Of a stretch of DNA of 64,000 nt, positions 16,474-47,798 are shown piece by piece; position 1 is the stretch's first letter, and the number at the start of each line of letters is the position of its first letter. The stretch comes from Alphaproteobacteria bacterium. GTDB lineage: Bacteria > Pseudomonadota > Alphaproteobacteria > SP197. Location: assembly GCA_964291265.2 (NCBI GenBank), contig OZ219747.1, forward strand, positions 2,432,001-2,496,000. Reading direction: 5' to 3'. Both the position numbers and the translations under genes were made by a program. The notes under the pieces are model-generated. The model saw only the letters and a list, made by a program, of their open reading frames with translations, was not told the DNA's origin and ran no database searches.

Positions 16474-18075
16474 ATGGCGAGGTACTTTCTGACGAAGACG
16501 CCGGTTGATCCGGGTTCCCTTGTGGAGGTCGGTGGGGCTCCGGTTCTGGCGCGCCATGATGTGCTGATGCAGGCGTTGTCGGGGGTGGCGGAGCCTGCGA
16601 GCGCGAGTGTTCTGGCGGAGCCTGTGCTCAGTCTTGGCAACGACCGGGCGGCGGCGACGGTGTCGTGGTACACCAGCCATGCCGGTGAGGCGCAGCGTCT
16701 GTCGGACCTGGACCCTGACCGCCGTGAGGCGGTGGAGTCTGTGTTGCGCGTGCGCCTGGCGGATGTTGCCCGTGGCCTGTCGGATCCCACGTTCGGGGCC
16801 CTGGTGGGCGGTGCGCTCAATGTGATGGACCCTGGCGATGTGTGGGTTGTGTCAGGTCAGCCGGTTGTGGTGGGCTGGGGCATGGCGCCCGGTGATGTGG
16901 CGCGGGATCGGCATTTTGCGGCGACCATGGGGCGGTGGCTTGCGTTGGCGCCGCGGGATGCGCCGTTGCCGCCTGCGGAGAGGGCTGATGTGCCGCCACC
17001 CCCTCCTCCTCCGCCCGTGGTGACGGCAGGGGGAGGCGGCGTCTGGCGCTGGGTGCCTCTGGCGCTGCTGTTGCTCGTGACGGCGGCGGTGCTGGTGTGG
17101 TTGCTTCTGCCGGGCACGCGGGTGCTGCCTCCGGAGCCCCGGGAAGGAGTTGTGGGGGATGCCGAGGCGCTGCGCATGGTGCGCGAGGCGAACGCCGCCC
17201 TGGAGAGCCGGATCGTGGAACTCGAGATGGCGATTGCCGGTGCGGTGTGTCTTGCCGATGGCGAGCTGGAGTTGCCGGACGGGCGCCGTCCCGAGGACAT
17301 CCTGCCGCCGCTTCCCGGAGTTGCCGAGGCGCCGTCGGGTTCCCGCCGGGGCGAGTCGGAGGCGTCCCTGGCGGAGCCGGCGACGCTTCTGGAGTTGATC
17401 GAGGAGCGCACGGTCATGGTGGTGGCCGGTGACGGTGAGAGGCTGAGCCTGGGGAGCGGTTTCTTTGTTGCCGGGGATCTGGTGATGACCAACGAGCACG
17501 TGGTGTCGGGCAAGGGGGGGATCGGTGTTCTCAACAGGTCTCTTGGGTTCCTGCATCGGGCCGAGGTTGTGGGCCTTGACGGTCCCATTGAGGCGACGGG
17601 CGGCGACTTTGCGCTGTTGCGCGTGGCGGATGCGGACCAGCCGTTCTTTTCCTTCGTGGAGGCCGAGGGTTCGCTGCGTCTTCAGTCTGTCATTGCGGCG
17701 GGCTATCCCGATCTCATCGTGAGTTCGGATGCGGCGTTCATTGCCCTGATGGAGGGTGATGCCGCCTCGATTCCGGATGTGGCGCTGACGGAGGGGATTG
17801 TCAGCGCGGAACAGGCTCTCCGGGCGGCCCCGGGTGTTGTGGCGGACGTGTTGATTCACACGGCGGACATATCCAGGGGCAATTCCGGCGGTCCGCTGAT
17901 TGACCGGTGTGGCCGCGTGGTGGGGGTCAACACGCTGACGCGTTCGGACGACGAGGTGATGCGGCGTCTCGACATTGCGCTGCGGGCGTCGGGCGCCGTG
18001 GACTTTCTTGAGGCGGCGGGTGTTCCCGTGGTGTCGGGCGGGGAGGCGTGCGCGCCCGCGGCGCCTGACGGGTGA
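16474..18075 (+). CDS. SrfA-like N-terminal domain + TM + trypsin-like (S1) serine protease
   Basis: Catalytic triad GSGFFV...TNEHVV (H), GDFALL (D), GNSGGPL (S); poly-Pro linker and TM; N-terminus is paralogous to 18919..20112. Confidence 0.85.
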   Translation: MARYFLTKTPVDPGSLVEVGGAPVLARHDVLMQALSGVAEPASASVLAEPVLSLGNDRAAATVSWYTSHAGEAQRLSDLDPDRREAVESVLRVRLADVARGLSDPTFGALVGGALNVMDPGDVWVVSGQPVVVGWGMAPGDVARDRHFAATMGRWLALAPRDAPLPPAERADVPPPPPPPPVVTAGGGGVWRWVPLALLLLVTAAVLVWLLLPGTRVLPPEPREGVVGDAEALRMVREANAALESRIVELEMAIAGAVCLADGELELPDGRRPEDILPPLPGVAEAPSGSRRGESEASLAEPATLLELIEERTVMVVAGDGERLSLGSGFFVAGDLVMTNEHVVSGKGGIGVLNRSLGFLHRAEVVGLDGPIEATGGDFALLRVADADQPFFSFVEAEGSLRLQSVIAAGYPDLIVSSDAAFIALMEGDAASIPDVALTEGIVSAEQALRAAPGVVADVLIHTADISRGNSGGPLIDRCGRVVGVNTLTRSDDEVMRRLDIALRASGAVDFLEAAGVPVVSGGEACAPAAPDG

Positions 18076-18902
18076 GGGGGCGTGGCGGCCTTGTGGCGGC
18101 GTTGGTCGGGGTGCCGGTGCTTGTCGTGCTGGCGCTGTGGATTGCCTCGCTTCTTCTGGAGAGTTGCGCCCTTGGTCCACTGACCCGCTGGCTGGGCGCC
18201 TGTCCGTCGGCGGCGGTCGGCGTCTCGGGTGACCTCGATGCCGAGATGGAGCACACCGGCCGCCTGGAGGACCGGGTGCGTCGGCTTGAACGCCATCTGG
18301 CGCTGTTGCGCGACTGTCCCCGGGTGCTGCCGGAGCCGCCCCCCGCAGGCCCGCAGCCCGTGCCTGCGCAGGAGCCTTCTGCGCCCCCGGAAGAACCGCT
18401 CCCCGCAGACGATTCCGACCCGCCGGAGGAGGACCGGTTGCCGGCGGCAGACGAGGAGTCGTCGGAATTCGACGAGAGGCTGGAAGACCAGGAGGGAGAG
18501 GTCAGCGAGGAGTTGACGGTGACGCTCATCTGGAATGATGAATCCGATCTCGACCTTGAAGTGCACTGCCCCGGAGGCGGGGCGGTGGGGGTCGTTGCGC
18601 AGGGCTGTGGCGGCGGCATTCTCGACGTGGACGCCAACGGATATGGATCCGGAGGCCTGAGGATGATGGCAAGGCCTGTGGAGAACATCCGTTTTCGCAG
18701 AGAGGCGCCGGAAGGAGAATACTGGGTCCGCATCTTCATTGCGGAAGCCTACGAGACGTCCCGAGGAGATGATCGCCGGCGCAACCTGGGACGCCATCCG
18801 TTCAGTGTCAGGGTCATCTCGCGGGGAGAAGCGACAGTGTTCGAGGGTTTTCATGAAGGCCTCGGTCGTGGTGATGTCTGGCTGAGTTTCACCCACGAGT
18901 GA
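18072..18902 (+). CDS. Membrane protein with coiled coil and C-terminal DUF2135/YfaP-like domain
   Basis: N-terminal TM, acidic Pro-rich linker, VTLIWNDESDLDLEVHCP...LDVDAN...PVENI...GEYWV. Confidence 0.7.
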   Translation: MRGRGGLVAALVGVPVLVVLALWIASLLLESCALGPLTRWLGACPSAAVGVSGDLDAEMEHTGRLEDRVRRLERHLALLRDCPRVLPEPPPAGPQPVPAQEPSAPPEEPLPADDSDPPEEDRLPAADEESSEFDERLEDQEGEVSEELTVTLIWNDESDLDLEVHCPGGGAVGVVAQGCGGGILDVDANGYGSGGLRMMARPVENIRFRREAPEGEYWVRIFIAEAYETSRGDDRRRNLGRHPFSVRVISRGEATVFEGFHEGLGRGDVWLSFTHE

Positions 18903-18918
18903 GGGAAACACCGCATCG

Positions 18919-20112
18919 ATGCCCGAAACCCTTGTGACCCGTACCTATGCGGAGGGCCTGAGACCGCTCGGGACCGCATCGCAACGCAACCCCGCGCTGA
19001 TCGCGGAGACCTTGCGGGTCCATCTCACCCCGGCCCACGTCCTGCTCTTCTGCGAGCCGTCACCGACGCCGGACGGCGTGGCGACGGACTGGTACGCGCA
19101 GTGCGTCGGGGCTGTGCGACAACTCGACAGTCTCGAGGGGGACGAGGCTTCCACTGCCCGCACGCGGCTGGGCGAGCTGGTCGGGGATATCCTCGCCCTT
19201 GCCGATCGTCTGGAGGCTGTCGGCGGCCAGTCGGACCGGCGTCTGGCGGAGGCACTGCGCAATGGCGTGGAGGTGCCGGCCAGCGATGCCATCTGGCTCA
19301 TGGGCGATCAGCCCCTCCTTGTCACCTGGGGCTACGCGCGCGATATCGACAAGGCGCCTCGTGGCATCATACGCCGGTTCATACCCGCAAGACCTCCTCC
19401 GCCCCCGCCACCCCCGTCCAGGGTCGTCGGGGATGCCGTGGCCGCGCCCGGCCGGCAAGGATCCGCGCCCGACGTCCTGTGGTGGCTGGGCTGGCTTCTC
19501 CTGACGGTGCTCGTCATGCTGGTGTTCTGGCTGCTGGTCGCGCCTTGCGCCGTGGTGCTGCCGGGCCTGGCGCCCTTCGGCAGGTGTCCGCCCGTCCCCT
19601 CGATGGCGCTCGTGGAGGAACGGCAAGTCCTCGACACACTCGAGAATCGCGTCGCCATGCTGGAACGTGAACTCGCTCTTCTCGACGGAAACTGCCGGGA
19701 AGAGCCCGACGAGGCGACCGATATCGTCCTCCAGGAAGGCGGGACCATGGGGGCCGTCAACATCATCCTGTCCTGGCAGGGCAGCGCCGATCTCGACCTT
19801 TCGGTGAGCTGCCCCGGTGGCGGAGTGATCGATTTCCGGAACAAGCAGGCCTGTGGCGGCGAGCTCGACATCGATGCCAACGTCGGCTTCACGATGCCGG
19901 CACCGGTCGAGAACGTCGTTTTCGACGACATGCCGAGCGCCGGAACCTACCCGGTCCAGGTCCATCTCCATGATTACCGGAACGATGACCCGGGCGCGCC
20001 GAGGCACTTCACGCTGACCGTCGTCATTGACGGCGAGGAAACGGTTCACAATGGTACTGTCGACGGTGACAATGCACGTTGGCGCACGGACATCGTGATG
20101 GGAGGCGTCTGA
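18919..20112 (+). CDS. SrfA-like membrane protein with C-terminal DUF2135/YfaP-like domain
   Basis: Immediately precedes srfB; EP...DWY...PLLVTWG N-domain, poly-Pro, TM, LSWQGSADLDL...LDIDAN...PVENV. Confidence 0.7.
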   Translation: MPETLVTRTYAEGLRPLGTASQRNPALIAETLRVHLTPAHVLLFCEPSPTPDGVATDWYAQCVGAVRQLDSLEGDEASTARTRLGELVGDILALADRLEAVGGQSDRRLAEALRNGVEVPASDAIWLMGDQPLLVTWGYARDIDKAPRGIIRRFIPARPPPPPPPPSRVVGDAVAAPGRQGSAPDVLWWLGWLLLTVLVMLVFWLLVAPCAVVLPGLAPFGRCPPVPSMALVEERQVLDTLENRVAMLERELALLDGNCREEPDEATDIVLQEGGTMGAVNIILSWQGSADLDLSVSCPGGGVIDFRNKQACGGELDIDANVGFTMPAPVENVVFDDMPSAGTYPVQVHLHDYRNDDPGAPRHFTLTVVIDGEETVHNGTVDGDNARWRTDIVMGGV

Positions 20113-23100
20113 TGAGGGAGAAGGAAGCGATCCTTCGCCCGGTTTCCGACTGGGGAGACACGATCACGCTGATCCCCTTCAGCGGGGTCCAGATGCTCGA
20201 CTTCGGATTCAACCTCGACGGCGTGCCGTTTCGTTCCCGACGCTTCATTGAACGGGTCACGCACCAGGAAGGCGGTGACGCCGCCTGCGATCTCATCCCT
20301 CTCGTCGACGAGGAAGACCGCAACGAAGGGATTCGTGCGGCCGGGAACATCGATGACGTCGAGTATGGCTTGCGGGCAGTGCAGGGCCTTGAACCCTTCC
20401 TCGAGAAGTGGGTTCCGGTGCCGATCCTGCGTGTCAGGCCGGGTCTGGGTTCCGACCGCAGCGAGCGCCATGATGACGGCCCTTTCGGATGGGCGCGGTT
20501 GCGGGTGGTCGAACTCGAGCGCAGCGATCCCGATACCGGCCATTCGCACCGCATCCAGATCGCGTTCGACACGACGCTGGTCGACGAGGGACCGGGGGGA
20601 CGCTATCTGCAGCCCCTCTTCAAGGACAGCGAGGACGAGCGGGAGTTTCGCCTGGTCAGCAGTGCCGACCACGTCACGCCGTTCCTGACATATGTCCAGG
20701 ACGACGAAACCCTGTCCGGGAAGGTGGATACCCAGGCCTGGGTGGCGGACTGGATCGAGGAAATCTTCATCGAGTTCAAGAAGGCAAGAGTCGGCAGACG
20801 CGCCCTCAGGGACGAGGATTTTCCCTACCGTCTCGAACATCTTGCACGGTTCCTGACCCTCCTGGCATTCATCGATTCCGCAGTCAGGGTGCCACGCTTC
20901 AAGCTCGTCGACGTGGTCTCGGACGAAGCCAGGCATGCACCGCTCGATGTCGACCTAGTCCTCGACATCGGCAACAGCAGGACCTGTGGCATTCTCATCG
21001 AGAGCGCGGCTGGCCAGACTTCGGTCGATCTTTCGAACTCCTATAGTCTGGAGATTCGCGACCTGTCGAGACCGGAGCTTCACTCGACTGGTGTGATCGA
21101 CAGCAGGGTCGAATTCGCCGCGGCGGAGTTCGGACGCGAACACATCGCCCGGCGCTCCGGACGCCGGGATGCCTTCCAGTGGCCCTCGATCGTGCGAACC
21201 GGACCGGAAGCCAATCGCATGGTTCGCCAGGAGGAAGGCACCGAGACGGCCTCGGGCCTGTCGTCGCCCAAGCGCTATCTCTGGGACCTCGAGCCATCGG
21301 TGAGCGAATGGCGATTCCAGAATCACATGGACGCGCAGAACATGCCGCGCATCGCCCGGTCCGCGTGCCGCTATCTCAACGACAACGGCGATGTCATCGA
21401 GCAGGTCAGGCGCGACGTCTCGGACCGTCTGCGTGACCGCAAGGACGCGAAGGTCGACATGGCGGTCAGGCCCAGGTTTTCCCGCTCGGCGCTCTACGGA
21501 TTCCTTGTCGGAGAACTGATCAGTCATGCGCTGGTGCAGATCAACGACCCGGCCTCCAGGGCCCGGCGGGCACGTTCTGCCGTCCCCCGGCGCCTGCGCA
21601 CCGTCATCCTCACCCTGCCTTCGGCGACACCCATGCAGGAGCAGGCGATCATCCGTTCCAGAGCCGAGGGAGCGGTTCGTCTGATCTGGTCCATTCTCGG
21701 CTTCGGAGAGGACGCCGCGGCCACCTGTTCCCGGCCAAGGCTGGTTGTTGACTGGGATGAAGCGAGTTGCACCCAGCTGGTCTGGCTCTACACCGAGATC
21801 GCCCGCAAGTTCGAAGGCAGGATCGACGAATACATGGCGCTCAAGGGACGGCCCAGAGTCCAGGAAGACGGCGGAGCCCCGGAAAACTCCATCCGCCTCG
21901 CCTGCATCGACATCGGCGGCGGCACCACCGATCTCATGGTGACCTCCTACTTCGGCGAGCGCGACAAGCTCATGATCCCGCGTCAGGTATTTCGCGAGGG
22001 TTTTCGCATTGCCGGCGACGATGTCACGCGCGAGGTGGTGGCATCGATCGTCCTGGGCCGCATCGCCGATTCCATCGAGGCCGCAGGCGGCGCCTGGGTC
22101 CGCGAGCGACTGTGCGAGCTCTTTGGCGGCGATGTGGGCGGCATGGATCAACGGATGCGCCAGATGCGCCGGCAGTTTTCCCTGAGGATTCTGGCGCCGC
22201 TGGCGGTTGCCACGCTGCACGCATGCGAGAACATCGCAGAGGATGCCACGTTCGAAATCCGCGTGGCGGACGTCCTCGGGTATCGTGAAGACGGGAATGG
22301 AACGCTGGAGCTCGACGTGCCCTCAGGTCTTGTCGCCTACCTCGAAGACCCGGTTCGGGAGGCCGGGGCACGCGACTGGCGCCTTGCCGATGCCACGATG
22401 AGGATTCGCCGTTTCGAGGTTGATGCATCGGTACGCGGCGTTCTGCAGAAGGCCCTGCAGGACATGGGCAGGGTGATCGACCATCTCGGCGTCGACGTGA
22501 TCCTGCTGACCGGGCGGCCCTCCAGGCTTCCGGCTGTCCGGGCACTGATCCGTGACATGATGATCGTGCCGCCGGACCGCCTGGTGTCCATGCATCGCTA
22601 CCGCGTCGAGGAGTGGTATCCCTTCCGCGATCCCGTGACCAACCAGGTCGGCGACCCGAAGAGCACGGTGGCGGTGGGAGGCATGCTGTGCGCTCTCAGT
22701 TCAAGCCGCATCGCCAGTTTCCGCCTGCGCTCCGAGCACCTGCAGATGCGCTCCACGGCCCGATTCGTCGGCGTCATGCATACCGCCGGGCAGATCTTCG
22801 ACAGGGACGTGCTCTTTGCCGAGGACGACGGCATGGCGCCGGGCGATGCTGTCGAGGATGAGGCGGTGCTTGCCGCCTACAACCCGGTTCACGTGGGCTT
22901 CCGCCAGATTGCCGATGAGAGGTGGACGACAACGCCGCTCTACCTCCTCGACTTTGCCAATGAGAGTGTGTTGAAACGCCCCCTCCCGGTGCGGGTGACA
23001 CTGAGACGGCGTGACTCCCATGCGGACCCCGAGAACCCCGATCACGTTCTGCGTCTCGAGGCGGCGAGGGAGGCGTTTGTGGTTGACTACGTCGAGGATG

Positions 23101-23204
23101 GCGCAGGCGATGCCTGTCACCGCGACGATGTCAGGCTGCGTCTGCAGACGCTCGGGCCCGAGGACCACTACTGGCTCGACACCGGCATCGTCCGGCTGGC
23201 GTGA
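20112..23204 (+). CDS. srfB: Virulence factor SrfB family (actin/Hsp70-like ATPase fold)
   Basis: About 1030 aa; VDLVLDIGNSRTCG, GLSSPKRYLWD, WDEASC, IDIGGGTTDL, LLTGRPSRLP, DPKSTVAVG, YWLDTG. Confidence 0.9.
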   Translation: MREKEAILRPVSDWGDTITLIPFSGVQMLDFGFNLDGVPFRSRRFIERVTHQEGGDAACDLIPLVDEEDRNEGIRAAGNIDDVEYGLRAVQGLEPFLEKWVPVPILRVRPGLGSDRSERHDDGPFGWARLRVVELERSDPDTGHSHRIQIAFDTTLVDEGPGGRYLQPLFKDSEDEREFRLVSSADHVTPFLTYVQDDETLSGKVDTQAWVADWIEEIFIEFKKARVGRRALRDEDFPYRLEHLARFLTLLAFIDSAVRVPRFKLVDVVSDEARHAPLDVDLVLDIGNSRTCGILIESAAGQTSVDLSNSYSLEIRDLSRPELHSTGVIDSRVEFAAAEFGREHIARRSGRRDAFQWPSIVRTGPEANRMVRQEEGTETASGLSSPKRYLWDLEPSVSEWRFQNHMDAQNMPRIARSACRYLNDNGDVIEQVRRDVSDRLRDRKDAKVDMAVRPRFSRSALYGFLVGELISHALVQINDPASRARRARSAVPRRLRTVILTLPSATPMQEQAIIRSRAEGAVRLIWSILGFGEDAAATCSRPRLVVDWDEASCTQLVWLYTEIARKFEGRIDEYMALKGRPRVQEDGGAPENSIRLACIDIGGGTTDLMVTSYFGERDKLMIPRQVFREGFRIAGDDVTREVVASIVLGRIADSIEAAGGAWVRERLCELFGGDVGGMDQRMRQMRRQFSLRILAPLAVATLHACENIAEDATFEIRVADVLGYREDGNGTLELDVPSGLVAYLEDPVREAGARDWRLADATMRIRRFEVDASVRGVLQKALQDMGRVIDHLGVDVILLTGRPSRLPAVRALIRDMMIVPPDRLVSMHRYRVEEWYPFRDPVTNQVGDPKSTVAVGGMLCALSSSRIASFRLRSEHLQMRSTARFVGVMHTAGQIFDRDVLFAEDDGMAPGDAVEDEAVLAAYNPVHVGFRQIADERWTTTPLYLLDFANESVLKRPLPVRVTLRRRDSHADPENPDHVLRLEAAREAFVVDYVEDGAGDACHRDDVRLRLQTLGPEDHYWLDTGIVRLA

Positions 23205-23219
23205 GGGATGGGGCATGTC

Positions 23220-25880
23220 ATGAGCGAGCGCGCTGAAGGACTGGCGAAACGCTGCCTCGCGGTGGCGGATCTGGCAAGCCGGGCCGGCGCCTGGATCAGC
23301 GATGACGCCAACCGGGAAAAGGTCGGCGCCCAGGGGCCTGCATTCGCCCGGGACTTCCGCCGCGCACGGGTTCGCGCCGACAAGCTTGCCACGGCAGCCG
23401 GCCGGAACATGTGCGTGGGTGTCTATGGACCGAGCCAGGCCGGCAAGTCCTATCTCATTTCGGTGCTCGCAAGGCCAAGGGGCGGAGATCTCGTGGCGGC
23501 CTTCGACGGCGCCAGGCGCCCCGTCACCTACCTCGACGAGATCAATCCGGAGGGACAGGGAGAATCGACGGGCCTCGTCACCAGGTTCACCACACGCAAG
23601 GTGCCGGCGCCTCCGGGTTATCCGGTCGGGGTCAGCCTGCTTTCGGAAGCGGACATCGCAAGGGTGTTGATCAACTCCTTTGCCGAGGATGGCGACAACA
23701 CGGAGACCCCACCGTCGGCGGAAGAGATCGAACAGTTGCTGGAGACGGCACGAGGGCAGGCAGGCGACCCGGGTCAGGCCATGACCATCGAGGAGATGTG
23801 GGATGTGCAGGATTACGTCGTCAGTCACTTCGGTCACCTCGCCTACTTCGCTCCCCTGGCCGACTACTGGAACCGTGCGGCCGACCTTGTGCCGCGGGTC
23901 AACCTGGCCACGCGAGCCGGTCTCCTCGCCGTTTTCTGGGGGCGCCATGCGCCCCTGACGGACCTCTACCTCGCGCTCGCCGGACATCTTGAAGCGCTCG
24001 GCGGAGTCCGCGATGCCTTCGTTCCTCTCGAGGCCCTCGTTCCACGCGAAACGTCGATCATCGATGTTCAGACCCTGAAGGACCTGGACCGCAAGGCGCA
24101 CGGCAATCTCGATCCGGTCGAGGTGACAACCGGGGACGGTGCCGTGGCACGCATCGGGAGGGGACATCTGTGTGCCATGGTGGCCGAGATGATCATTCCC
24201 ATGGCGGGTGTGCCGTGGGAGTTCATGCACAGGACCGATCTTCTCGACTTTCCCGGCACACGGAATCGCTTCACCCATGATCTCGGCCGGTTCCTTGCCG
24301 AGGGCGAATCGCCGGTCTCCCAGCTCTTCCTGCGCGGCAAGGTCGCCTATCTCTTCGATCGCTATGTTGCCGAACAGGAAATGACCTCGATGATCCTGTG
24401 CATCGGCGACGGCAACATGGAGGCGAAGGATCTTCCGGGACTTGTCGAGAACTGGGTGGCTGCAACCCATGGCGACACGCCTGCCCGGCGGGCCGAGGCA
24501 CGGTGCATCCTGTTCTTCGTGCTCACCAAGTTCGATACACTGCTCGTCGAATCCGGCGGTTCAGGTGATGATCCGACGACGCGGTTCGAAAGGCGTATCC
24601 AGAATTCAATGGTGGAACCCTTCGGAAAGATGGCTGACGCCTGGATCAACGAATGGTTGCCGCAAACGCCCTTCAACAACACCTACTGGATGCGCAATCC
24701 GACCTACGAAGCGCCGTTGATCGCCTATGATGCGGACCGTCGCGAAGCCGCCATTCGCGAGGACATGATGGAACGACTCGAGACCCTGCGTCAGGGGGCG
24801 GTGGCGGCGCCGCTGGTCCAGCGTCATTTCTCCGATCCCCAGGCGGCCTGGGAGGCGGCGCTGACGATCGACGATGGGGGTGTCGGCCGACTGGCGGAAG
24901 CGCTGGCCGATGTCTGCCACATCGAGACCAAGCTTGACCAGATCAGTGATCAGCTGGATATCCTGATCGACGGCATCCAGCGTCCGCTCTCCCGGTTCCA
25001 TGTCTCCTCGGATCTCAAGGAGAGGCTGGCTCTGAGGCAGGAGGCGGCCGACACCGTCCTCGATAGTCTCGACATGTGCTTTGACGACAACCGGTTCGCC
25101 GAACTCCTCGAGGATCTGATGATCGACCCGGCGGTCGCTGCCGACCGCATGGCGCGCGTGCCCGGCGGTATTTTCATTGTCGCCGAAGGTCAGCAGCCCC
25201 CGCCCGGTGATTCGGTGGCCGCTGGCGGTCGGTCGGCAAGGCCCCGCCCCGGAGGGCGGCGGCAGGCGGAGGCGAAACCTCCCGTCGACACCGCAGAGGG
25301 ACCAAGGACAAGGCGCATGACCATGGAGGCCTTCCAGGCGGAACGTGCGCTGACGACGTGGATCGATGGCCTGCATGATCTCGCCGTCCGCCCGGAGTGG
25401 CGGCGGCGGTTCAGTCTGACCGAGCAGACGGCGAGCGACCTCGTGGCCGAACTCATCGAGGCGGCCCGACGCCTCCCTCTCCATGACGACATCGTGACCG
25501 CGCTCAGGAAGTGGAATTTCTCCCTCCACTCGGACCGCCGTGCCGCGCCTGCGGCGGCGATCGCGGCCGAGGCCATCAACTCCTTTGTTGCCCGTCTCGG
25601 CATGGACAGATTACCGCAGGACAGGCGTCCGCAGGTTGAACTGGAAGGGAACAGGACACGGCCGGTGTTCGGGGAGCGGCCCTCCAGGGATGATGTCACG
25701 TCCTTCTCGTTTGCTTACGGCACCGGCACCGAGGATCGGTTTGTCGACTGGACCCATGGCCTCTTCCGGGTCTTCGAGGACAATGCCCGGTGCGTTGGCG
25801 GAGAGACCGTGGATACGGAGCAGAACCTCGTGCTCGGCGAGATTGTCGCAAGGCTTGAGGCGAACAGGATGGCGACATGA
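23220..25880 (+). CDS. srfC: Virulence factor SrfC family (P-loop, GTPase-like)
   Basis: GVYGPSQAGKSYLIS, INPEG..ESTGLVTRFT, DLLDFPG, RGKVAYLFDRY, LTKFD; follows srfB. Confidence 0.88.
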   Translation: MSERAEGLAKRCLAVADLASRAGAWISDDANREKVGAQGPAFARDFRRARVRADKLATAAGRNMCVGVYGPSQAGKSYLISVLARPRGGDLVAAFDGARRPVTYLDEINPEGQGESTGLVTRFTTRKVPAPPGYPVGVSLLSEADIARVLINSFAEDGDNTETPPSAEEIEQLLETARGQAGDPGQAMTIEEMWDVQDYVVSHFGHLAYFAPLADYWNRAADLVPRVNLATRAGLLAVFWGRHAPLTDLYLALAGHLEALGGVRDAFVPLEALVPRETSIIDVQTLKDLDRKAHGNLDPVEVTTGDGAVARIGRGHLCAMVAEMIIPMAGVPWEFMHRTDLLDFPGTRNRFTHDLGRFLAEGESPVSQLFLRGKVAYLFDRYVAEQEMTSMILCIGDGNMEAKDLPGLVENWVAATHGDTPARRAEARCILFFVLTKFDTLLVESGGSGDDPTTRFERRIQNSMVEPFGKMADAWINEWLPQTPFNNTYWMRNPTYEAPLIAYDADRREAAIREDMMERLETLRQGAVAAPLVQRHFSDPQAAWEAALTIDDGGVGRLAEALADVCHIETKLDQISDQLDILIDGIQRPLSRFHVSSDLKERLALRQEAADTVLDSLDMCFDDNRFAELLEDLMIDPAVAADRMARVPGGIFIVAEGQQPPPGDSVAAGGRSARPRPGGRRQAEAKPPVDTAEGPRTRRMTMEAFQAERALTTWIDGLHDLAVRPEWRRRFSLTEQTASDLVAELIEAARRLPLHDDIVTALRKWNFSLHSDRRAAPAAAIAAEAINSFVARLGMDRLPQDRRPQVELEGNRTRPVFGERPSRDDVTSFSFAYGTGTEDRFVDWTHGLFRVFEDNARCVGGETVDTEQNLVLGEIVARLEANRMAT

Positions 25881-26794
25881 CGTTCAGGATCATTCCGGAC
25901 CCCCGCCACCCGCTGGGAGGACACGCCCTTCTCACCATGGACGAGGGACAATCGACCGGCAACGGTCAGCTGACCATCCGCCGGTCCTATGACTTGCGCT
26001 ACCTCGGAGCATCGGGCTGGCAATTGGCCAAGGCAACGCTCGGGCCTCTGGAGTCCGCCGCGAACGGCCTCATTCTCGGTCCCGATGTGGTGCGTCATGT
26101 TGACGAATTCGACAACCTCGAGATCACGTTCGAGGGCGGCAGCGCCGGCAGCGTCGTATGGCCCGGCAGCGTCCTTCTTGCTCCCGATGCGGCGCGCGAC
26201 GGCGGTTTCGCCAGGAGCGTGACTGAACACGCACCGGATGTTCCCGTGGTGGCGGCAGGGCAGACGGAAACTGAAGGAGAAGGTGAACCACCACCGGCCG
26301 ACAGCCCTCACGCCTCACGTCGTGGCGCCTGCGTCGTCCTTGCCCTGGTGGTCGTGGTCCTCGGGATAGCAGCGGCTCTCTACGTTCTGCGGGACGATAT
26401 CGTCGAGCCGCAGACGGCGAAGACGGGGCTGCCGTGCAGCGATGATGCCGTGACCGGTGTCGCGGAGACAGACTTGCTGCTTGAATGGGTCGAGCGATGC
26501 GGGACCGACGAGGGAGTCGCTCCGCAAACGCGGTTGTCGGTTGTCGAAAGACTGATTGGCAAGACACCGGATGCGCTTGTCGTCATGGGCGGCTGGTACG
26601 ATCCGGCCCTTGAATCCGATTCGTCCCCCTTCGAAAGGCCAGCCCTCGAGATTGCGGCGCGCTACTACGCCGACGCCGCCGACGCCGGGGTTGATGGCGC
26701 ACAGGGTCTTCTCGATGACGTCTGCGGGCGTCTCGATGCGGACAACTTCATGCAGAACGACGCCATTGATCTCTACTGTGGAGGAGGGCAGTGA
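25877..26794 (+). CDS. Membrane protein with C-terminal Sel1-like helices
   Basis: Beta-rich N-terminus, TM segment, then ALVVMGGWYDP...AARYYADAADAG; coupled to both neighbours. Confidence 0.6.
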   Translation: MTFRIIPDPRHPLGGHALLTMDEGQSTGNGQLTIRRSYDLRYLGASGWQLAKATLGPLESAANGLILGPDVVRHVDEFDNLEITFEGGSAGSVVWPGSVLLAPDAARDGGFARSVTEHAPDVPVVAAGQTETEGEGEPPPADSPHASRRGACVVLALVVVVLGIAAALYVLRDDIVEPQTAKTGLPCSDDAVTGVAETDLLLEWVERCGTDEGVAPQTRLSVVERLIGKTPDALVVMGGWYDPALESDSSPFERPALEIAARYYADAADAGVDGAQGLLDDVCGRLDADNFMQNDAIDLYCGGGQ

Positions 26795-28737
26795 TGCGTC
26801 TGCGCCTCATGGTGCTCGCCGTTGTTGCGGTCCTGGCGGGTGTGGTCGGTTCGGCCGTTGAAGCCCAGGGGGAGAGGCCGCTCCTGATCGATGGCACGAA
26901 CACGCTCTATCAACGTGTTCTCACGCGCCCCGGCACACCACGCTTCGATGCGCCTCAAGGCGTTGTCCAGGACCTCTACCCTGCGTTCCAGCCTCTCTAT
27001 GTCTTTGGCCGTGAAGGTTCCTGGCTCCAGGTCGGGGGAGCGGCCGGGATGCCGGCCGAAGGATGGGTGAACGAGGACGCCACGATCGACTGGCGCTACA
27101 ATGTCGTTGCCGCATTCACAAGCACTGCAGGCAGGGAGCGCCAGCTCCTCTTTTCCGATCTCGCGTCACTGGACAGTCTGATCCAGAGCGAGGCCACGGT
27201 GTCGCTGGCCCGCGAGTTGAGGCAGACCATTGATGAAGGAGGGTCCGGGGAGACGTCGGGGGTGATCTCGATTGAACCGGCCGAATACGTCGACATCAAC
27301 GATGCCGAGACCTTCTATGTCCTGCCGATCCTCGAGTTCCACGAGGATTTCCATCCCATGAGCGCTGAGCTGTTTCTGAAGATGCGTGTCGCCTCGGTCC
27401 CGTTGCAGGACGAACCGATCGCCGAGCCTCCATTGCTGGAAGACTCCATCCGGGACTCTGATGCCGGCATCATGATCGTGCTCGACACCACCCGGTCGAT
27501 GGGGCCTTTCATTGCCGAAACCCTCGAGGTCATGGAGGAGGAGATCCGCAGGATTGCGAACACGGAAACCGGCGAGAGGGTGCATTTCGGCATCCTGGGC
27601 TTTCGTGACAATCCCGCCGCCGCCGAGGGAATCGAGTACCGGGTTCGCGTCTTTTGTCCCCTCGACAGGGACAACGCCGTTGATGCGCCACTTGCCGCGC
27701 TCTCGTCCATGGAGGTCGCCGGAGTGTCCACGCCCGGCTACAACGAGGACAGTCTTGCGGCCATCCGCCATGCCCTGGAGGAGACCGACTGGGCGCCAGG
27801 TGGCATGGAATTCGTCAAGAAACTCATCATCCTCGTGACCGATGCCGGGCCCAAGACTGCGCGGGATCCCAATGCCGAGACCGACATCAACGCTGCATCT
27901 CTTCAGGCGATGGCAAGGGAGCAGGATGTCGGCATCATCGTCATCCATCTCCTCACGCCGGATGGGGTGGCGAACCACGAGTACGCGGCGAACCACTACC
28001 GGGAACTTGCCGCGGCACTCGGCCATGTCTTCTATTATCCGGTGGCCGGTGGGCCGCAGGATTTTGGCACCGAAGTCCGTTCGACCATCACCGGGGTCAT
28101 GTCCCAGGTTTCCAGAAACCTCGAGGGTGAACTCACCGAGGTGCCAGAGCCTGACGAGACCGGTGCATTGCCCGAGGGGGCGGAACTCGATGTGCTCGGA
28201 CTGGCCATGGAACTTGCCTATCTCGGGCGTGTGCTCGAAACACGGGCGCCGGACGTGTTCGAGGCCTGGGTGGCGGACCGGGCGCTCGAGGACTCGCGCA
28301 AGGTCGCGGTCGAACCGCGCCTGCTGATTACGAAGAACCAGCTGTCGTCGCTGCGCGACGTGCTTGATGCCGTGCTCGAGGTCGGGGAGAACACCCAGAC
28401 GCGCGGTGCGGCGCACGATTTTTTCGGCCGACTTCAGGGCGCCGTATCGCGCATGGCCCAGGATCCCGACAGGTTGATCAACACCGATTTCGATACCCTT
28501 GGGAGCGCCTTTGGCGAATTTCTGGAGGGACTTCCCTATCAGAGCCGGGTGATGGAGATCACCCAGGAACGCTGGGACAGCATGGGAACGGGACGACGTC
28601 AGATCATCGATGACCTGAGAAGCCGTTTCCTGCTCTATGAACGCTGGCATGACGACCCCTCACTGTGGGTGGCGCTCTACGACGACGCGCCCGACGGCGA
28701 GCATGTCTATGCCATGCCCTTCGGAGCCCTGCCCTGA
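26791..28737 (+). CDS. Exported vWA-domain protein resembling the periplasmic part of T6SS kinase PpkA (no kinase domain)
   Basis: Signal peptide, RPLLIDGTNTLYQRVLTRPG, SH3-like segment, MIDAS-like VLDTTRSMG and LVTDAG, LPYQS, terminal VYAMPFGALP. Confidence 0.75.
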   Translation: MMRLRLMVLAVVAVLAGVVGSAVEAQGERPLLIDGTNTLYQRVLTRPGTPRFDAPQGVVQDLYPAFQPLYVFGREGSWLQVGGAAGMPAEGWVNEDATIDWRYNVVAAFTSTAGRERQLLFSDLASLDSLIQSEATVSLARELRQTIDEGGSGETSGVISIEPAEYVDINDAETFYVLPILEFHEDFHPMSAELFLKMRVASVPLQDEPIAEPPLLEDSIRDSDAGIMIVLDTTRSMGPFIAETLEVMEEEIRRIANTETGERVHFGILGFRDNPAAAEGIEYRVRVFCPLDRDNAVDAPLAALSSMEVAGVSTPGYNEDSLAAIRHALEETDWAPGGMEFVKKLIILVTDAGPKTARDPNAETDINAASLQAMAREQDVGIIVIHLLTPDGVANHEYAANHYRELAAALGHVFYYPVAGGPQDFGTEVRSTITGVMSQVSRNLEGELTEVPEPDETGALPEGAELDVLGLAMELAYLGRVLETRAPDVFEAWVADRALEDSRKVAVEPRLLITKNQLSSLRDVLDAVLEVGENTQTRGAAHDFFGRLQGAVSRMAQDPDRLINTDFDTLGSAFGEFLEGLPYQSRVMEITQERWDSMGTGRRQIIDDLRSRFLLYERWHDDPSLWVALYDDAPDGEHVYAMPFGALP

Positions 28738-28748
28738 CAAGGGCGGCC

Positions 28749-29462
28749 ATGCGCTTCGTCCTCGAGCGCGTGTCGCGCACCCTGGAGAGTTCCACCCGCA
28801 GGTTCGAACTCGATATCCCGGCCTTCAAGGTGGATCGCGGCGAGGTGGTCGCCCTTGTCGGCGACAGCGGTTCGGGCAAGACGGCTATGATGGAGCTTCT
28901 CGCGCTCGCTGCGGCACCCGATGAAGGCGGGTGCTTCGTGCTGGCTGGCGATGAAGAGGTCGACATTGCCAGACTGTGGCGTCAGGCACGGTTGAAGGAT
29001 CTCGCCGCGACAAGGAGCCGGCATCTCGGATTCGTGGCCCAGACCGGCGGACTCCTCGAGTTTCTGACGGTGAGGGAGAATGTGGCTCTGGCTCAGGATG
29101 TCGCCCGCAGGCATGACCGTCAGCGTGTCGACCGGCTGGCCCGGACACTGGGCCTTGAGAGCGTCCTCGATGAACGCCCGGCCGGGCTGTCCATCGGACA
29201 GCGCCAGCGGACCGCGATCCTGCGCGCCCTCGCTCATCGTCCGTCCTTTGTCATCGCCGATGAACCGACCTCGGCGCTCGACCCCCGCACCGCCCGTGAA
29301 GTCATCGATCTCCTTCTCGAGACAGCGGCAGGCGAGGGGGCGGGCATCATTGTTTCGACCCACAACGTTGCGCTGATGTCCCACGCCGGCGTCGAGACTG
29401 TCCCTGTCGTGCCCGTTTCCGGAACGGCTCACTGGGTCAGTCGCGTGGAGCGCCGGCGATGA
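28749..29462 (+). CDS. ABC transporter ATP-binding protein (TagT/LolD-like)
   Basis: GDSGSGKT, LSIGQRQR, IADEPTSALD, STH. Confidence 0.9.
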   Translation: MRFVLERVSRTLESSTRRFELDIPAFKVDRGEVVALVGDSGSGKTAMMELLALAAAPDEGGCFVLAGDEEVDIARLWRQARLKDLAATRSRHLGFVAQTGGLLEFLTVRENVALAQDVARRHDRQRVDRLARTLGLESVLDERPAGLSIGQRQRTAILRALAHRPSFVIADEPTSALDPRTAREVIDLLLETAAGEGAGIIVSTHNVALMSHAGVETVPVVPVSGTAHWVSRVERRR

Positions 29463-30655
29463 TCCTCGTCCGCCTTGCCATCGCCGACCTCTGGCACGAC
29501 CGGATCATGGCGCTCTGCAACATGGCCGCCATCATCGGCATCGTGGCACCGCTTGGCATTCTCTCCGGCATCAAGACGGGTGTTGTCGATGCCCTCATCC
29601 ACGATCTCGCCACCCGCCCTGACATCCTGCGGGTCGCCATCTCGGGCAATCACGGGTTTGCACCGGGCGATATCGAGGAGGTGGCGGGCTGGCAGGAAAC
29701 CGGATTCGCGGTTCCGTCGTCGCGGTCCATAGCCCGGCGTCTCATGGTCCGTCGCGAAGGCGGAACCGTCATCCGCCGCGCCGCGCTCGTTGCCACAGGT
29801 GCGGGTGAACCCTGGCTCGCCGACAGTGAGGTCATCACCGAGGACGAGGTGGCGGCGAGTTCCGCTCTGGCACGGCGTCTCGACCTTGTCCCCGGTGATC
29901 GTCTCGAAGCGGTTGCGCGCCGTGGCGAGACCGGCGAGACCGTGCTGACACTGACGCTGAAGGTCGCAGCGGTGCTGCCCCGGGGCACGCTGGCCGGAGA
30001 CGGGTTGCTGATGACGCCCGCCCTCATGGACGACATCGAGGCCTTCTATGACGGCTACGCGGTGACACGTCTCGGCATGGACGAGGGCCGACCGCTGATC
30101 GAGAGAACGCGACTGGCCGAAAGCATGCGTCTCTATGCCGCAGATCTGTTATCCGTAGCTCCTCTCGAAGACCGTCTCGAGAAACGGTTCGGCATCGAGG
30201 CCTCGTCGGATGCCTCAGAGGTCGAAGCGACTCTCGATCTCGAACGCCGCCTCGGCCTTGCCCTCGATCTCGTGGTCGCTGCGGCGACCGCAGGGCTGTT
30301 TGCCGCCCTTGCGGCAAGCTTCTGGTCGATGACACGGGCACGCAGGCGGGGTCTTGCCGTGCTGGCGATGATCGGCATGCCACCGGCGCGTCTGGCCTGC
30401 TATCCGGTGTGTGTGGCGCTCGTGACGGCGCTCTTCGGCCTTGCCGGCACCGCCGGTCTCGTCATGGGCGGTGCGGTCGCAGCCACCCGCCTGTTCGGCG
30501 GGGATCTTCCGGGCGACGCATCCTTCATGCCGTCGCCTGGCGACGCAGCGCGCCTTTGCGCCGGTGTCCTCGTCATCTCCGCGGCGGCCTCCTTCCTCGC
30601 TGCCCGGGAGGCTGCCTGCACCCAACCCGGCGCCGTCTTCAGAGAGGAGGCATGA
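29459..30655 (+). CDS. FtsX/MacB-like ABC permease (TagS-like)
   Basis: One N-terminal TM, a large periplasmic loop containing RLYA, and three C-terminal TMs. Confidence 0.8.
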   Translation: MILVRLAIADLWHDRIMALCNMAAIIGIVAPLGILSGIKTGVVDALIHDLATRPDILRVAISGNHGFAPGDIEEVAGWQETGFAVPSSRSIARRLMVRREGGTVIRRAALVATGAGEPWLADSEVITEDEVAASSALARRLDLVPGDRLEAVARRGETGETVLTLTLKVAAVLPRGTLAGDGLLMTPALMDDIEAFYDGYAVTRLGMDEGRPLIERTRLAESMRLYAADLLSVAPLEDRLEKRFGIEASSDASEVEATLDLERRLGLALDLVVAAATAGLFAALAASFWSMTRARRRGLAVLAMIGMPPARLACYPVCVALVTALFGLAGTAGLVMGGAVAATRLFGGDLPGDASFMPSPGDAARLCAGVLVISAAASFLAAREAACTQPGAVFREEA

Positions 30656-46822: not shown

Positions 46823-47128
46823 GCCGCTTGATGTGTTGAGGTCCGTCCGGAGGATTCTGGTAGGTGACGGCCGGAGCGCCGTCACTGAGCCATCGCTTCA
46901 GTTGAACGGTTCTCGGCATGCCCGTTCGGCCCAAGGTGGGTTCAGCAGACGGGCAGTGTTCCGCACTCCGGATCGTCCTGTGTCGTAACTACCCAGGTAC
47001 CTCGTCAGGTCTGAGTCTGTGTTGACGTTGGGTGCGGTTTTGGTGTCGTCGGTTTGTTGATTCTGCGCGTCTTGACTTACTAGGCCGGTGAGCCTATGAG
47101 TTGCCCTCTGTCATGAGGGGAGCGGCCG

Positions 47129-47798
47129 TTGGGGTACTTCGGATCGAAGGCGACGCCGGGTTTGTGCCAGGCGCTGATTGCGATGATGCCGCCGCACTCT
47201 GTCTACATTGAGAGCCATCTGGGGGGCGGCGCGCTGATGAAGCGCAAGCCTGCGTCTGTGCGCTCGATCGGGATTGACCGTGATGAGCGTGCGCTTGAGG
47301 CCTTTGAGTGCGCTTATCCGGTGGAGTTGGTGCACGGCTGTGCTCACTCCTTCCTGGCTTCGTTCCCGTTTCTGGGTCCGGAGCTGGTCTACAGCGATCC
47401 GCCCTATCTGCACGCGACGCGGCGTTCGTCGCAGCGCTACCGCTTCGAGTACGAGGAGGCGGACCATGTTGCGCTCCTTGAACTGCTCAAGGGCCTGCCC
47501 TGTCAGGTGATGGTCTCGGGCCACCCGTGAAGCGCTCTATGACGATCTTCTGGCGGGCTGGCGCCGGGTGGCGCTGCAGGTGACGACCCAGGCCCAGGTG
47601 CGGACCGAGGTGGTATGGTTCAACTTTGCTCCCGACCGGGTGCACTGGTCGCGCTACGCGGGGCGGAACTTCACCGCCCGCCAGTGCATCAAGCGCAAGG
47701 CGGCCAACTGGGGGCGGCGCTATGAGGCCATGCCGCCGGGGGAACGTCTGGCCGTGCTGGCGGCGATCATGGCCGTCGAGGCCGGGGAGGGTTCGTGA
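47129..47798 (+). pseudogene. Dam/D12-class DNA adenine methyltransferase, interrupted (TGA plus +1 shift at 47528-47531)
   Basis: GYFGSK, YIESHLGGGA, GID, YSDPPY, VMVSGH; the downstream frame continues ALYDDLLAGW...RTEVVWFNF. Confidence 0.8.

What the first reader, a model, noticed from the sequence alone, without database searches (positions are those of the whole stretch)
16474..20112. Domain-shuffled trio of SrfA-like membrane proteins, one carrying an intact trypsin protease
Seen: genes 1 and 3 share an N-domain (EP...WY...G...L..L; DVWVVSGQPVVVGWG vs DAIWLMGDQPLLVTWG), a poly-Pro linker, a TM and a coiled coil ending in Cys. Genes 2 and 3 share a C-domain (W...DLDL.V.CP.GG...CGG..LD.DAN...PVEN). 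The architectures are A-protease, B, and A-B. Inference: a hetero-oligomeric receptor assembled via coiled coils with swappable extracytoplasmic domains, the protease being the variable effector, as in NTPase-coupled conflict systems.
Basis: partly seen in the sequence, partly recalled or inferred. Interest (0 to 1): 0.7.

Follow-up and report, generated by a model that had tools for sequence, protein, structure and literature searches.

The report
SrfA membrane subunits with swappable tips
Three neighbouring membrane-protein genes share an anchor and stalk but carry different tips, one a protease with all catalytic residues, and relatives exchange such tips, so the poorly understood SrfABC system likely works as a modular machine that responds to cell-envelope damage.

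Summary
The trio is real. Gene 1 is SrfA-N/TM/stalk/trypsin (H342, D378, S471), gene 2 is TM/stalk/domain B, gene 3 is SrfA-N/TM/stalk/domain B. They head an srfB-srfC operon whose tail is homologous, in order, to the T6SS damage sensor PpkA(periplasmic part)-TagT-TagS-TagR, in a genome where no T6SS sheath gene was found. In 77 other srfB loci, 100 SrfA-N proteins carry lipocalin (54), vWA (11), B (10), trypsin (9) or rarer tips. Within this genus, neighbouring paralogues are 91-100% identical in DNA through head and stalk but keep different tips. A hetero-oligomer through the Cys-ended coiled coil has only weak support (model score 0.36 against 0.05; co-occurrence not significant once kinship is counted). 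Most likely the stalk bundles a periplasmic protease and capture tips onto a cytoplasmic Hsp70-like ATPase and dynamin-like GTPase during envelope damage. Nothing functional was tested. Verdict: new variant of a known, unexplained system.

The parts
16474..18075 (+). Gene 1: SrfA-N head (about res 1-160), Pro linker, TM 194-212, coiled coil ending Cys259, trypsin-like domain without PDZ (H342 at 17497, D378 at 17605, S471 at 17884)
   Evidence: 348 homologues at E<=0.001 among 7997 scored candidates
18072..18902 (+). Gene 2: headless subunit; N-terminal TM 7-25, Cys32/Cys44, coiled coil ending Cys82, acidic Pro linker, domain B (18471-18899)
18919..20112 (+). Gene 3: SrfA-N head, poly-Pro, TM 195-213, Cys210/Cys223, coiled coil ending Cys259, domain B (19717-20103), a predicted TerD/DUF2135-like beta-sandwich
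20112..23204 (+). srfB (PF07520); carries Hsp70/actin-type motifs DIGNSRT, DEA, DIGGGTTD, GRPS, DPK
   Evidence: motif names recalled from the Hsp70/actin fold, no profile or structure hit obtained
23208..25880 (+). srfC (PF10139); carries GTPase motifs GPSQAGKS, T, DFPG, TKFD
   Evidence: 'dynamin-like' is inferred from motifs and size, no structure hit
25877..26794 (+). Single-TM protein conserved after srfC; some homologues have Sel1/TPR repeats
26791..28737 (+). vWA protein: kinase-less homologue of the periplasmic part of T6SS kinase PpkA
   Evidence: 31% over 646 columns, E 3e-88
28749..29462 (+). ABC ATPase, TagT homologue
   Evidence: 42-47% to the gene after ppkA in 4 of 4 T6SS loci
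29459..30655 (+). FtsX-type permease, TagS homologue
   Evidence: 30-32% in 4 of 4 T6SS loci
30652..32253 (+). FGE-sulfatase-domain protein, TagR homologue
   Evidence: 32-33% in 4 of 4 T6SS loci; next gene in T6SS locus L130 is TagQ NF041250

Best explanation
The three genes are SrfA-family single-membrane-segment proteins built from a shared head, anchor and Cys-ended stalk with exchangeable tips, and they likely bundle through the stalk into one inner-membrane complex that would put a protease and two capture domains in the periplasm and connect them to the cytoplasmic NTPases SrfB and SrfC. Step by step. Shown: architecture, intact triad, tip exchange and homogenisation of head and stalk in relatives, and homology of the operon tail to PpkA(periplasmic)-TagT-TagS-TagR. 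From the literature: SrfA-N is modelled as a catalytically dead kinase fold that docks SrfB, then SrfC; TagQR-PpkA senses outer-membrane damage. Inferred: damage is sensed by the TagR/vWA/ABC module; with no kinase and no T6SS, the signal goes to SrfB (ATPase) and SrfC (GTPase), which assemble on the SrfA heads at the damaged site; the stalk, probably locked by its single terminal Cys, holds the trypsin tip next to B or lipocalin tips, which catch proteins or lipids for cutting or removal while SrfC remodels the membrane. Gene 2 has no head and would join only through the stalk. The protease is the constant working subunit; the binding tips are the variable part.
For: Tip classes on 100 SrfA-N proteins in 77 loci. 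L108: adjacent N-B and N-lipocalin genes 91-99% identical per 100 nt over the first 800 nt, then 27-52%. L100 and L105: gene 1 copies 100% and 99.6% within a genome but 96% between genomes; gene 2 stalks 100% within, 92.4% between; gene 2 tips 65-66% within, 88.5-90.8% between matching copies. Stalk present in 33 of 40 multi-paralogue loci and 0 of 17 single-srfA loci. All 20 loci with a headless stalk protein also have a head-bearing stalk protein (9 are this family, 1 is cut by a contig end). Three-chain model: score 0.36, best control 0.05, runs agree in at least 52% of contacts, partner pLDDT at least 65; this mark was reached by 116 of 157 solved complexes and 2 of 215 mismatches, but at 0.60 or under by only 18 of the 157 and by both mismatches, so it is weak. 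All three stalks contain R-h-x-x-h-E (motif per PMC3653964 passages). Sensor homology. No VipA match in the own genome, rated 100% complete. SrfA-N is fused to a different serine protease, subtilisin, in 2 Bacteroidota loci.
Against: No functional or expression data. The stalk/multi-paralogue link and the B/trypsin link are not significant after kinship (5 and 4 independent pairs, p 0.5 and 1); B with trypsin (11 of 13 against 9 of 49) is mostly one clade. The trimer motif is not family-wide (22 of 28, 1 of 15, 7 of 46). Salmonella-type loci lack both stalk and Tag module yet keep srfABC, so the sensor is not essential to SrfABC. No tagQ beside this operon; a TagQ-like lipoprotein lies elsewhere in the genome (E 3.3e-10). 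The kinase-like fold of SrfA-N was not reproduced here (HHalign probability 1%; fold search filled by domain B). Purified SrfA, B and C of Xenorhabdus are reported as cytotoxic (PMC6950479 passages).
Confidence: 0.45

Rival explanations
1. Regulated proteolysis relay: the trypsin subunit works like DegS or MarP, cutting a partner (gene 2, gene 3, the single-TM protein or the vWA protein) when the tips bind a ligand; cleavage carries the signal inward to SrfBC and replaces PpkA phosphorylation.
For: Best NCBIfam matches are MarP and HtrA/DegS models, all below cut-off; the PpkA homologue has lost its kinase; protease fused to SrfA-N twice, trypsin and subtilisin; gene 2 overlaps gene 1 and is duplicated with it.
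Against: No PDZ domain; 42 of 62 surveyed loci have no trypsin tip; no sigma/anti-sigma pair noticed beside the loci in the maps, not searched for specifically.
Confidence: 0.17
2. The paralogues are separate homo-oligomeric receptors that share SrfBC in turn; the stalk only self-assembles and gene 2 is a free decoy or accessory protein.
For: The complex score is weak; gene 1's stalk is the most divergent of the three (87-92% profile probability); a headless stalk-lipocalin gene sits far from the operon in this genome.
Against: Single-srfA loci have no stalk (0 of 17); headless forms were always found with a head-bearing stalk protein (20 of 20); replacing gene 1's chain dropped the score to 0.05.
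Confidence: 0.15
3. Exported toxin or conflict system: SrfABC is a tripartite toxin, released for example in vesicles, and the protease is a swappable effector tip (first reader; SrfABC literature).
For: Cytotoxicity reports (PMC6950479); vesicle export proposed in bioRxiv 10.64898/2026.09.18.752743; constant base with variable tip resembles polymorphic toxins; patchy presence, 10 of 22 same-genus genomes.
Against: Protease lineage is stable, one change on the tree; the common variable tips are non-enzymatic by family match (lipocalin, vWA, B); membrane anchor and no N-terminal signal in genes 1 and 3; no small immunity-like ORF between the genes; same chromosomal site in 7 of 7 same-genus loci with upstream flank.
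Confidence: 0.12
4. Envelope biogenesis or surface-display machine: SrfBC power assembly or export of lipoproteins/adhesins with the Lol-like ABC and FGE protein, and the tips are adhesion or cargo-binding modules.
For: LolD/FtsX-type ABC and GldK-like FGE matches; B resembles Ca-binding and adhesin beta-sandwiches; Campbell 2013 saw the cluster in host-associated Deltaproteobacteria.
Against: The same four genes are the closest to the T6SS sensor, whose ABC did not change TagQ/TagR localisation (PMC13713981 discussion); no outer-membrane channel gene in the loci maps.
Confidence: 0.1

Closest known systems
SrfA of SrfABC (NCBIfam NF040486; Salmonella, Xenorhabdus, Haemophilus; bioRxiv 10.64898/2026.09.18.752743)
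   Same: SrfA-N head, one TM, position directly before srfB-srfC, downstream vWA/ABC/permease/FGE cassette.
   Different: Three paralogues, none with the lipocalin tip; trypsin and B tips; a headless subunit; Cys-ended coiled-coil stalk absent from single-srfA loci; tip exchange. The preprint section read (9, part 1 of 2) describes only the lipocalin form; its supplements were not seen.
TagQRST-PpkA membrane-damage sensor of Pseudomonas H1-T6SS (PMC13713981; link to srfBC first noted in PMC3608642)
   Same: PpkA periplasmic part, TagT, TagS, TagR homologues in the same order (30-47% identity).
   Different: No kinase domain on the PpkA homologue, no adjacent tagQ, no T6SS sheath gene found; output inferred to be SrfABC.
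Membrane-anchored periplasmic S1 proteases DegS/HtrA and MarP
   Same: TM anchor, trypsin domain, GNSGG motif.
   Different: Cytoplasmic SrfA-N head, coiled-coil stalk, no PDZ; scores far below those families' cut-offs.
TerD / DUF2135 (YfaP-like) / PPC beta-sandwiches
   Same: Predicted fold (TerD Z 8.1, rmsd 3.7, 113 aligned), DLDL motif, invariant acidic residues.
   Different: Only weak sequence matches; has its own Cys pair; ligand unknown.
Polymorphic toxin systems and NTPase-coupled ternary conflict systems
   Same: Constant base with variable C-terminal module; trypsin, vWA and NTPase partners.
   Different: Tips are membrane-tethered and mostly non-enzymatic, the protease is not the variable part, no immunity gene seen.

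Membership tests
SrfA family (NF040486) | N-terminal SrfA-N domain | tested here: met
   Genes 1 and 3 hit profile positions 18-173 and 29-167; gene 2 has none
SrfA family (NF040486) | Whole-protein score over curated cut-off (150 bits) | tested here: not met
   30.7 and 56.1 bits; a Salmonella-type SrfA scored 574.8
SrfA family (NF040486) | C-terminal lipocalin-like domain | tested here: not met
   Lipocalin-tip HMM hits only an unlinked gene in this genome
SrfA family (NF040486) | Kinase-like fold of the head | tested here: inconclusive
   HHalign to PpkA kinases probability 1%; fold search dominated by domain B; claim rests on the preprint
SrfABC operon | srfB and srfC directly downstream | tested here: met
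   PF07520 E 7.7e-303, PF10139 E 2.4e-245
SrfABC operon | SrfA-SrfB-SrfC complex, cytotoxicity | not testable with these tools
   Reported for Xenorhabdus; not examined for this locus
Trypsin-like S1 protease | His-Asp-Ser triad | tested here: met
   H342, D378, S471 invariant in 46 of 46; TN.H in 31 of 31 and G[ND]SG in 29 of 31 trypsin tips
Trypsin-like S1 protease | Proteolytic activity | not testable with these tools
   Needs assay
HtrA/DegS | PDZ domain and family cut-off | tested here: not met
   No PDZ hit; all HtrA/DegS/MarP models below cut-off
TerD / DUF2135 | Fold and profile match of domain B | tested here: inconclusive
   TerD Z 8.1 and 7.2; DUF2135 weak in 8 of 24 members, best E 1e-4; Atlas DUF2135 clusters 0.94-0.95
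TagQRST-PpkA sensor | PpkA periplasmic domain, TagT, TagS, TagR in order | tested here: met
TagQRST-PpkA sensor | Kinase domain fused to the PpkA periplasmic domain | tested here: not met
   Match starts at PpkA residue 382; window protein is 648 aa with no kinase hit
TagQRST-PpkA sensor | Adjacent tagQ and a T6SS | tested here: not met
   M23 peptidase gene follows on the other strand; TagQ-like gene unlinked; VipA 0 matches (only this one T6SS family searched)
Polymorphic toxin system | Constant N-terminal part with exchanged C-terminal tips | tested here: met
Polymorphic toxin system | Variable tip is the toxin, followed by an immunity gene | tested here: not met
   Protease lineage stable; following genes are membrane paralogues
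NTPase-coupled ternary conflict systems | Named NTPase plus effector-associated domains of those systems | not tested
   Recalled only; PADLOC not searched; no such Pfam domain on the 10 operon-region proteins scanned

The most novel reading that the evidence does not exclude
SrfABC is a widespread, T6SS-independent envelope damage-response machine: the tit-for-tat sensor (TagRST plus kinase-less PpkA) rewired to an Hsp70-like ATPase and a dynamin-like GTPase, which dock on a disulfide-locked coiled-coil trimer whose periplasmic tips form a combinatorial repertoire (protease plus variable binders) kept diverse by gene conversion, a bacterial variable-receptor system in the periplasm.
Probability: 0.3. 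Interest if true: 0.88.

Novelty: new variant of a known kind. Interest (0 to 1): 0.62.

Why it matters
SrfABC has been labelled a virulence factor or toxin for years without a mechanism. This locus and its relatives show that SrfA is a family of membrane-tethered subunits with exchangeable periplasmic tips, one of which is an enzyme with a known catalytic serine. That gives the first simple handle (Ser471Ala, stalk Cys mutants) and a clear prediction (response to outer-membrane damage) that can be tested in harmless laboratory alphaproteobacteria. If true, it also shows that the T6SS damage sensor has a second, kinase-free output.

Tried and rejected
Pairwise BLASTP of the two heads: not significant; profiles were needed. 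Sequence searches of solved structures for the gene 2 profile, SrfB profile and SrfC: nothing meaningful. Foldseek on both models: no match at E<=0.001. SrfB and SrfC profiles found no DnaK/MreB or GTPase in the own genome, so those labels rest on motifs. SrfA-N against PpkA kinases: no support. An apparent fusion of the single-TM gene with vWA in L042 was an ORF-extension artefact. A first coiled-coil heuristic missed genes 1 and 2 and was replaced by a leave-locus-out matrix. B/trypsin co-occurrence as proof of partnership: rejected after the kinship test. Trimer motif as family-wide feature: rejected. Expression: no RNA holder listed. Promoter/terminator scan: no more than chance. The careful tree did not finish; the quick tree was used. 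The profile search of protein representatives for domain B never ran, so B's wider family is known only from Pfam and the Atlas. Literature searches that found no description of multi-paralogue srfA arrays, protease tips or the stalk; most subscription journals are outside that library and the preprint's supplements were not seen.
Full report
Observation. The three ORFs lie at 16474-18075, 18072-18902 and 18919-20112 on the + strand, tightly packed and followed by srfB and srfC. Genes 2 and 3 share domain B (34%, E 1e-15). Genes 1 and 3 share the head, but only at profile level: BLASTP E 1.6, NF040486 E 2.2e-7 and 4.2e-15, HHalign 99.7%. Each has one hydrophobic segment followed by a coiled coil that ends in a single Cys (259, 82, 259); the three TM-stalk profiles align at 87-98%. 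Gene 1's trypsin triad is invariant in 46 of 46 aligned homologues (46 chosen from the 120 listed). N-in, C-out topology is inferred from the lack of a signal peptide on genes 1 and 3, the basic N-terminus of gene 2 and the paired Cys in the tips; no topology predictor was available.

Survey. srfB was found in 21 of 401 genomes of the class and 10 of 22 other genomes of the genus. I took 19 loci from the first set and 59 from a named collection, dropped one duplicate, and found 100 SrfA-N proteins in 77 loci. Their C-terminal parts cluster as lipocalin-like 54, vWA 11, B 10, trypsin 9, a Reyranella type 5, TerD-like 2, and 9 singletons (Pfam labels). Two Bacteroidota proteins carry a subtilisin, which agrees with earlier scan note e1-3055797. 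Headless TM-tip forms recur with trypsin, lipocalin and B tips.

Exchange is recent and local. In the genus, L104 has eight paralogues in a row and L108 four. In L108 the N-B and N-lipocalin genes are 91-99% identical per 100 nt for 800 nt and 27-52% after; the break lies just past the stalk Cys. L100 and L105 each carry two gene 1-gene 2 units. Gene 1 copies are 100% and 99.6% alike within a genome and 96% between genomes; gene 2 stalks 100% within and 92.4% between; gene 2 tips 65-66% within but 88.5-90.8% between matching copies. The simplest reading is an old duplication whose base is homogenised by gene conversion while two tips are kept; a collapsed assembly of near-identical copies cannot be excluded for the 100% values.

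Which part varies. On a quick tree of 107 heads (near-duplicate genus rows from L101, L102, L103, L105 and one L100 copy left out; one L104 row labelled lipocalin by hand), the 14 trypsin proteins need one change (support 83), B needs 9, lipocalin 11 and vWA 7, of which 3, 3 and 2 are forced by well-supported branches. The protease is thus a stable lineage across several alphaproteobacterial families; B and lipocalin are the swapping tips.

Domain B. Its model is confident (pLDDT 95.8). Best structural matches are TerD (Z 8.1, rmsd 3.7, 113 aligned; Z 7.2) and, lower, C-terminal domains of subtilases (Z 5.2-5.6, 29-31% identity); the tool warns that Z near 8 may be only a common arrangement. 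DUF2135 matches weakly in 8 of 24 members and in the Atlas. W20, D25, D27, D51, D53 and E65 are invariant in 24 of 24, which fits Ca2+ binding by analogy with TerD (inference).

Hetero-oligomer. A stalk was scored in 33 of 40 multi-paralogue loci and 0 of 17 single-srfA loci (nine contig-cut loci and six near-duplicate or same-family loci left out), and all 20 loci with a headless stalk protein also hold a head-bearing one. Against this, the kinship-corrected test has only 5 independent pairs (p 0.5), and the B/trypsin link (11 of 13 against 9 of 49) collapses to mostly one clade. The three-chain model scored 0.36 against a best control of 0.05, contacts agreeing in at least 52%, partner pLDDT at least 65; by the tool's own counts (116 of 157 solved and 2 of 215 mismatched pairs reach the mark, but only 18 solved and both mismatches do so at 0.60 or under) this is weak, and the controls were not coiled coils. 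All three stalks have R-h-x-x-h-E, a trimer motif that also occurs in some dimers (PMC3653964 passages), but it is not family-wide.

Context. SrfB keeps Hsp70/actin-type motifs and SrfC G1-G4 motifs at near invariance in 36 and 30 aligned sequences; the fold names are my recall, not a database hit. The vWA gene matches residues 382-999 of a protein named PpkA (31%, E 3e-88), and the ABC, permease and FGE genes match the next three genes in 4 of 4 T6SS loci, where the following gene is TagQ. Lipoproteins after the FGE gene in other srf loci are TagQ homologues, and this genome has one elsewhere. VipA was not found here. Campbell 2013 (PMC3608642, passages) already noted tagQRST and ppkA homologues beside srfBC. 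Kolesnikov 2026 (PMC13713981, abstract and sections 13, 14) shows TagQR complex formation on membrane damage and models its binding to PpkA's periplasmic domain. The 2026 preprint (10.64898/2026.09.18.752743, passages, outline and section 9 part 1) models SrfA-N as a dead kinase fold docking SrfB then SrfC and calls the system a vesicle-exported toxin. Hu-type cytotoxicity data are in PMC6950479 (passages).

Mechanism and verdict. Most likely (0.45) the trio forms a stalk-bundled membrane adaptor that presents a constant protease and variable binding tips in the periplasm and couples them to SrfBC when the Tag-like module reports envelope damage. Rivals are a proteolytic signal relay (0.17), separate homo-oligomers (0.15), an exported toxin (0.12) and an export/display machine (0.10). 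The modular, tip-swapping architecture itself is well shown; every functional step is inferred. I found no description of these arrays, tips or stalk in six literature searches, with the library limits noted. New variant of a known kind; interest 0.62.

Noticed in passing
window 16474-18075: Gene 1 has the third most G+T-rich fourfold codon sites of 2164 long ORFs in the genome (0.75; mean 0.45, sd 0.06), behind only the two tuf copies, whose profile it nearly copies; groEL, fusA, rpoB, dnaK are C-rich. Possibly a mark of repeated gene conversion; unexplained.
   Followed up: partly
L110:8388-9056 (-), G000 C2:1607387-1608055: Lone headless TM-stalk-lipocalin gene about 840 kb from the operon, with a gene 2-type stalk; a candidate fourth subunit.
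   Followed up: partly
G000 C2:3965436-3966194 (-): TagQ-like lipoprotein not linked to the operon (E 3.3e-10).
   Followed up: no
L087:1128-9802: Headless trypsin followed by five tandem SrfA-N/lipocalin paralogues in a deltaproteobacterial genome.
   Followed up: no
L064:16589-19024; L089:17274-19391: Bacteroidota SrfA-N proteins with a subtilisin domain, placed after srfC.
   Followed up: partly
L027, L033, L034, L035 upstream of srfA genes: Headless TM-trypsin gene transcribed divergently from an SrfA-N/vWA plus SrfA-N/lipocalin pair.
   Followed up: partly
L102 (srfB), L103:6330-7406, L041:8647-9977: Relatives with an internal stop in srfB, a shortened gene 3 and a split N/B gene; decay or assembly errors.
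   Followed up: no
plasmid collection: The kinase-less PpkA-like vWA gene is on 126 plasmid records, 114 of them Klebsiella.
   Followed up: no
window 17203-18589 in run X2: One contig over the 3' part of gene 1 and the start of gene 2 has depth 89.8 against 52.7 and 30.1 on either side; may be a collapsed duplicate, but depth is not copy number.
   Followed up: no
window 35592-40652 and 41069-49336: rRNA operon with tRNAs, followed by a PIN-domain gene, an HTH antitoxin-like gene, a 2OG-Fe(II) oxygenase and an IS66 transposase, possibly an island at the tRNA.
   Followed up: no
L094:7027-9876 (-): A true Ser/Thr kinase near a distant srfB homologue in a planctomycete.
   Followed up: no
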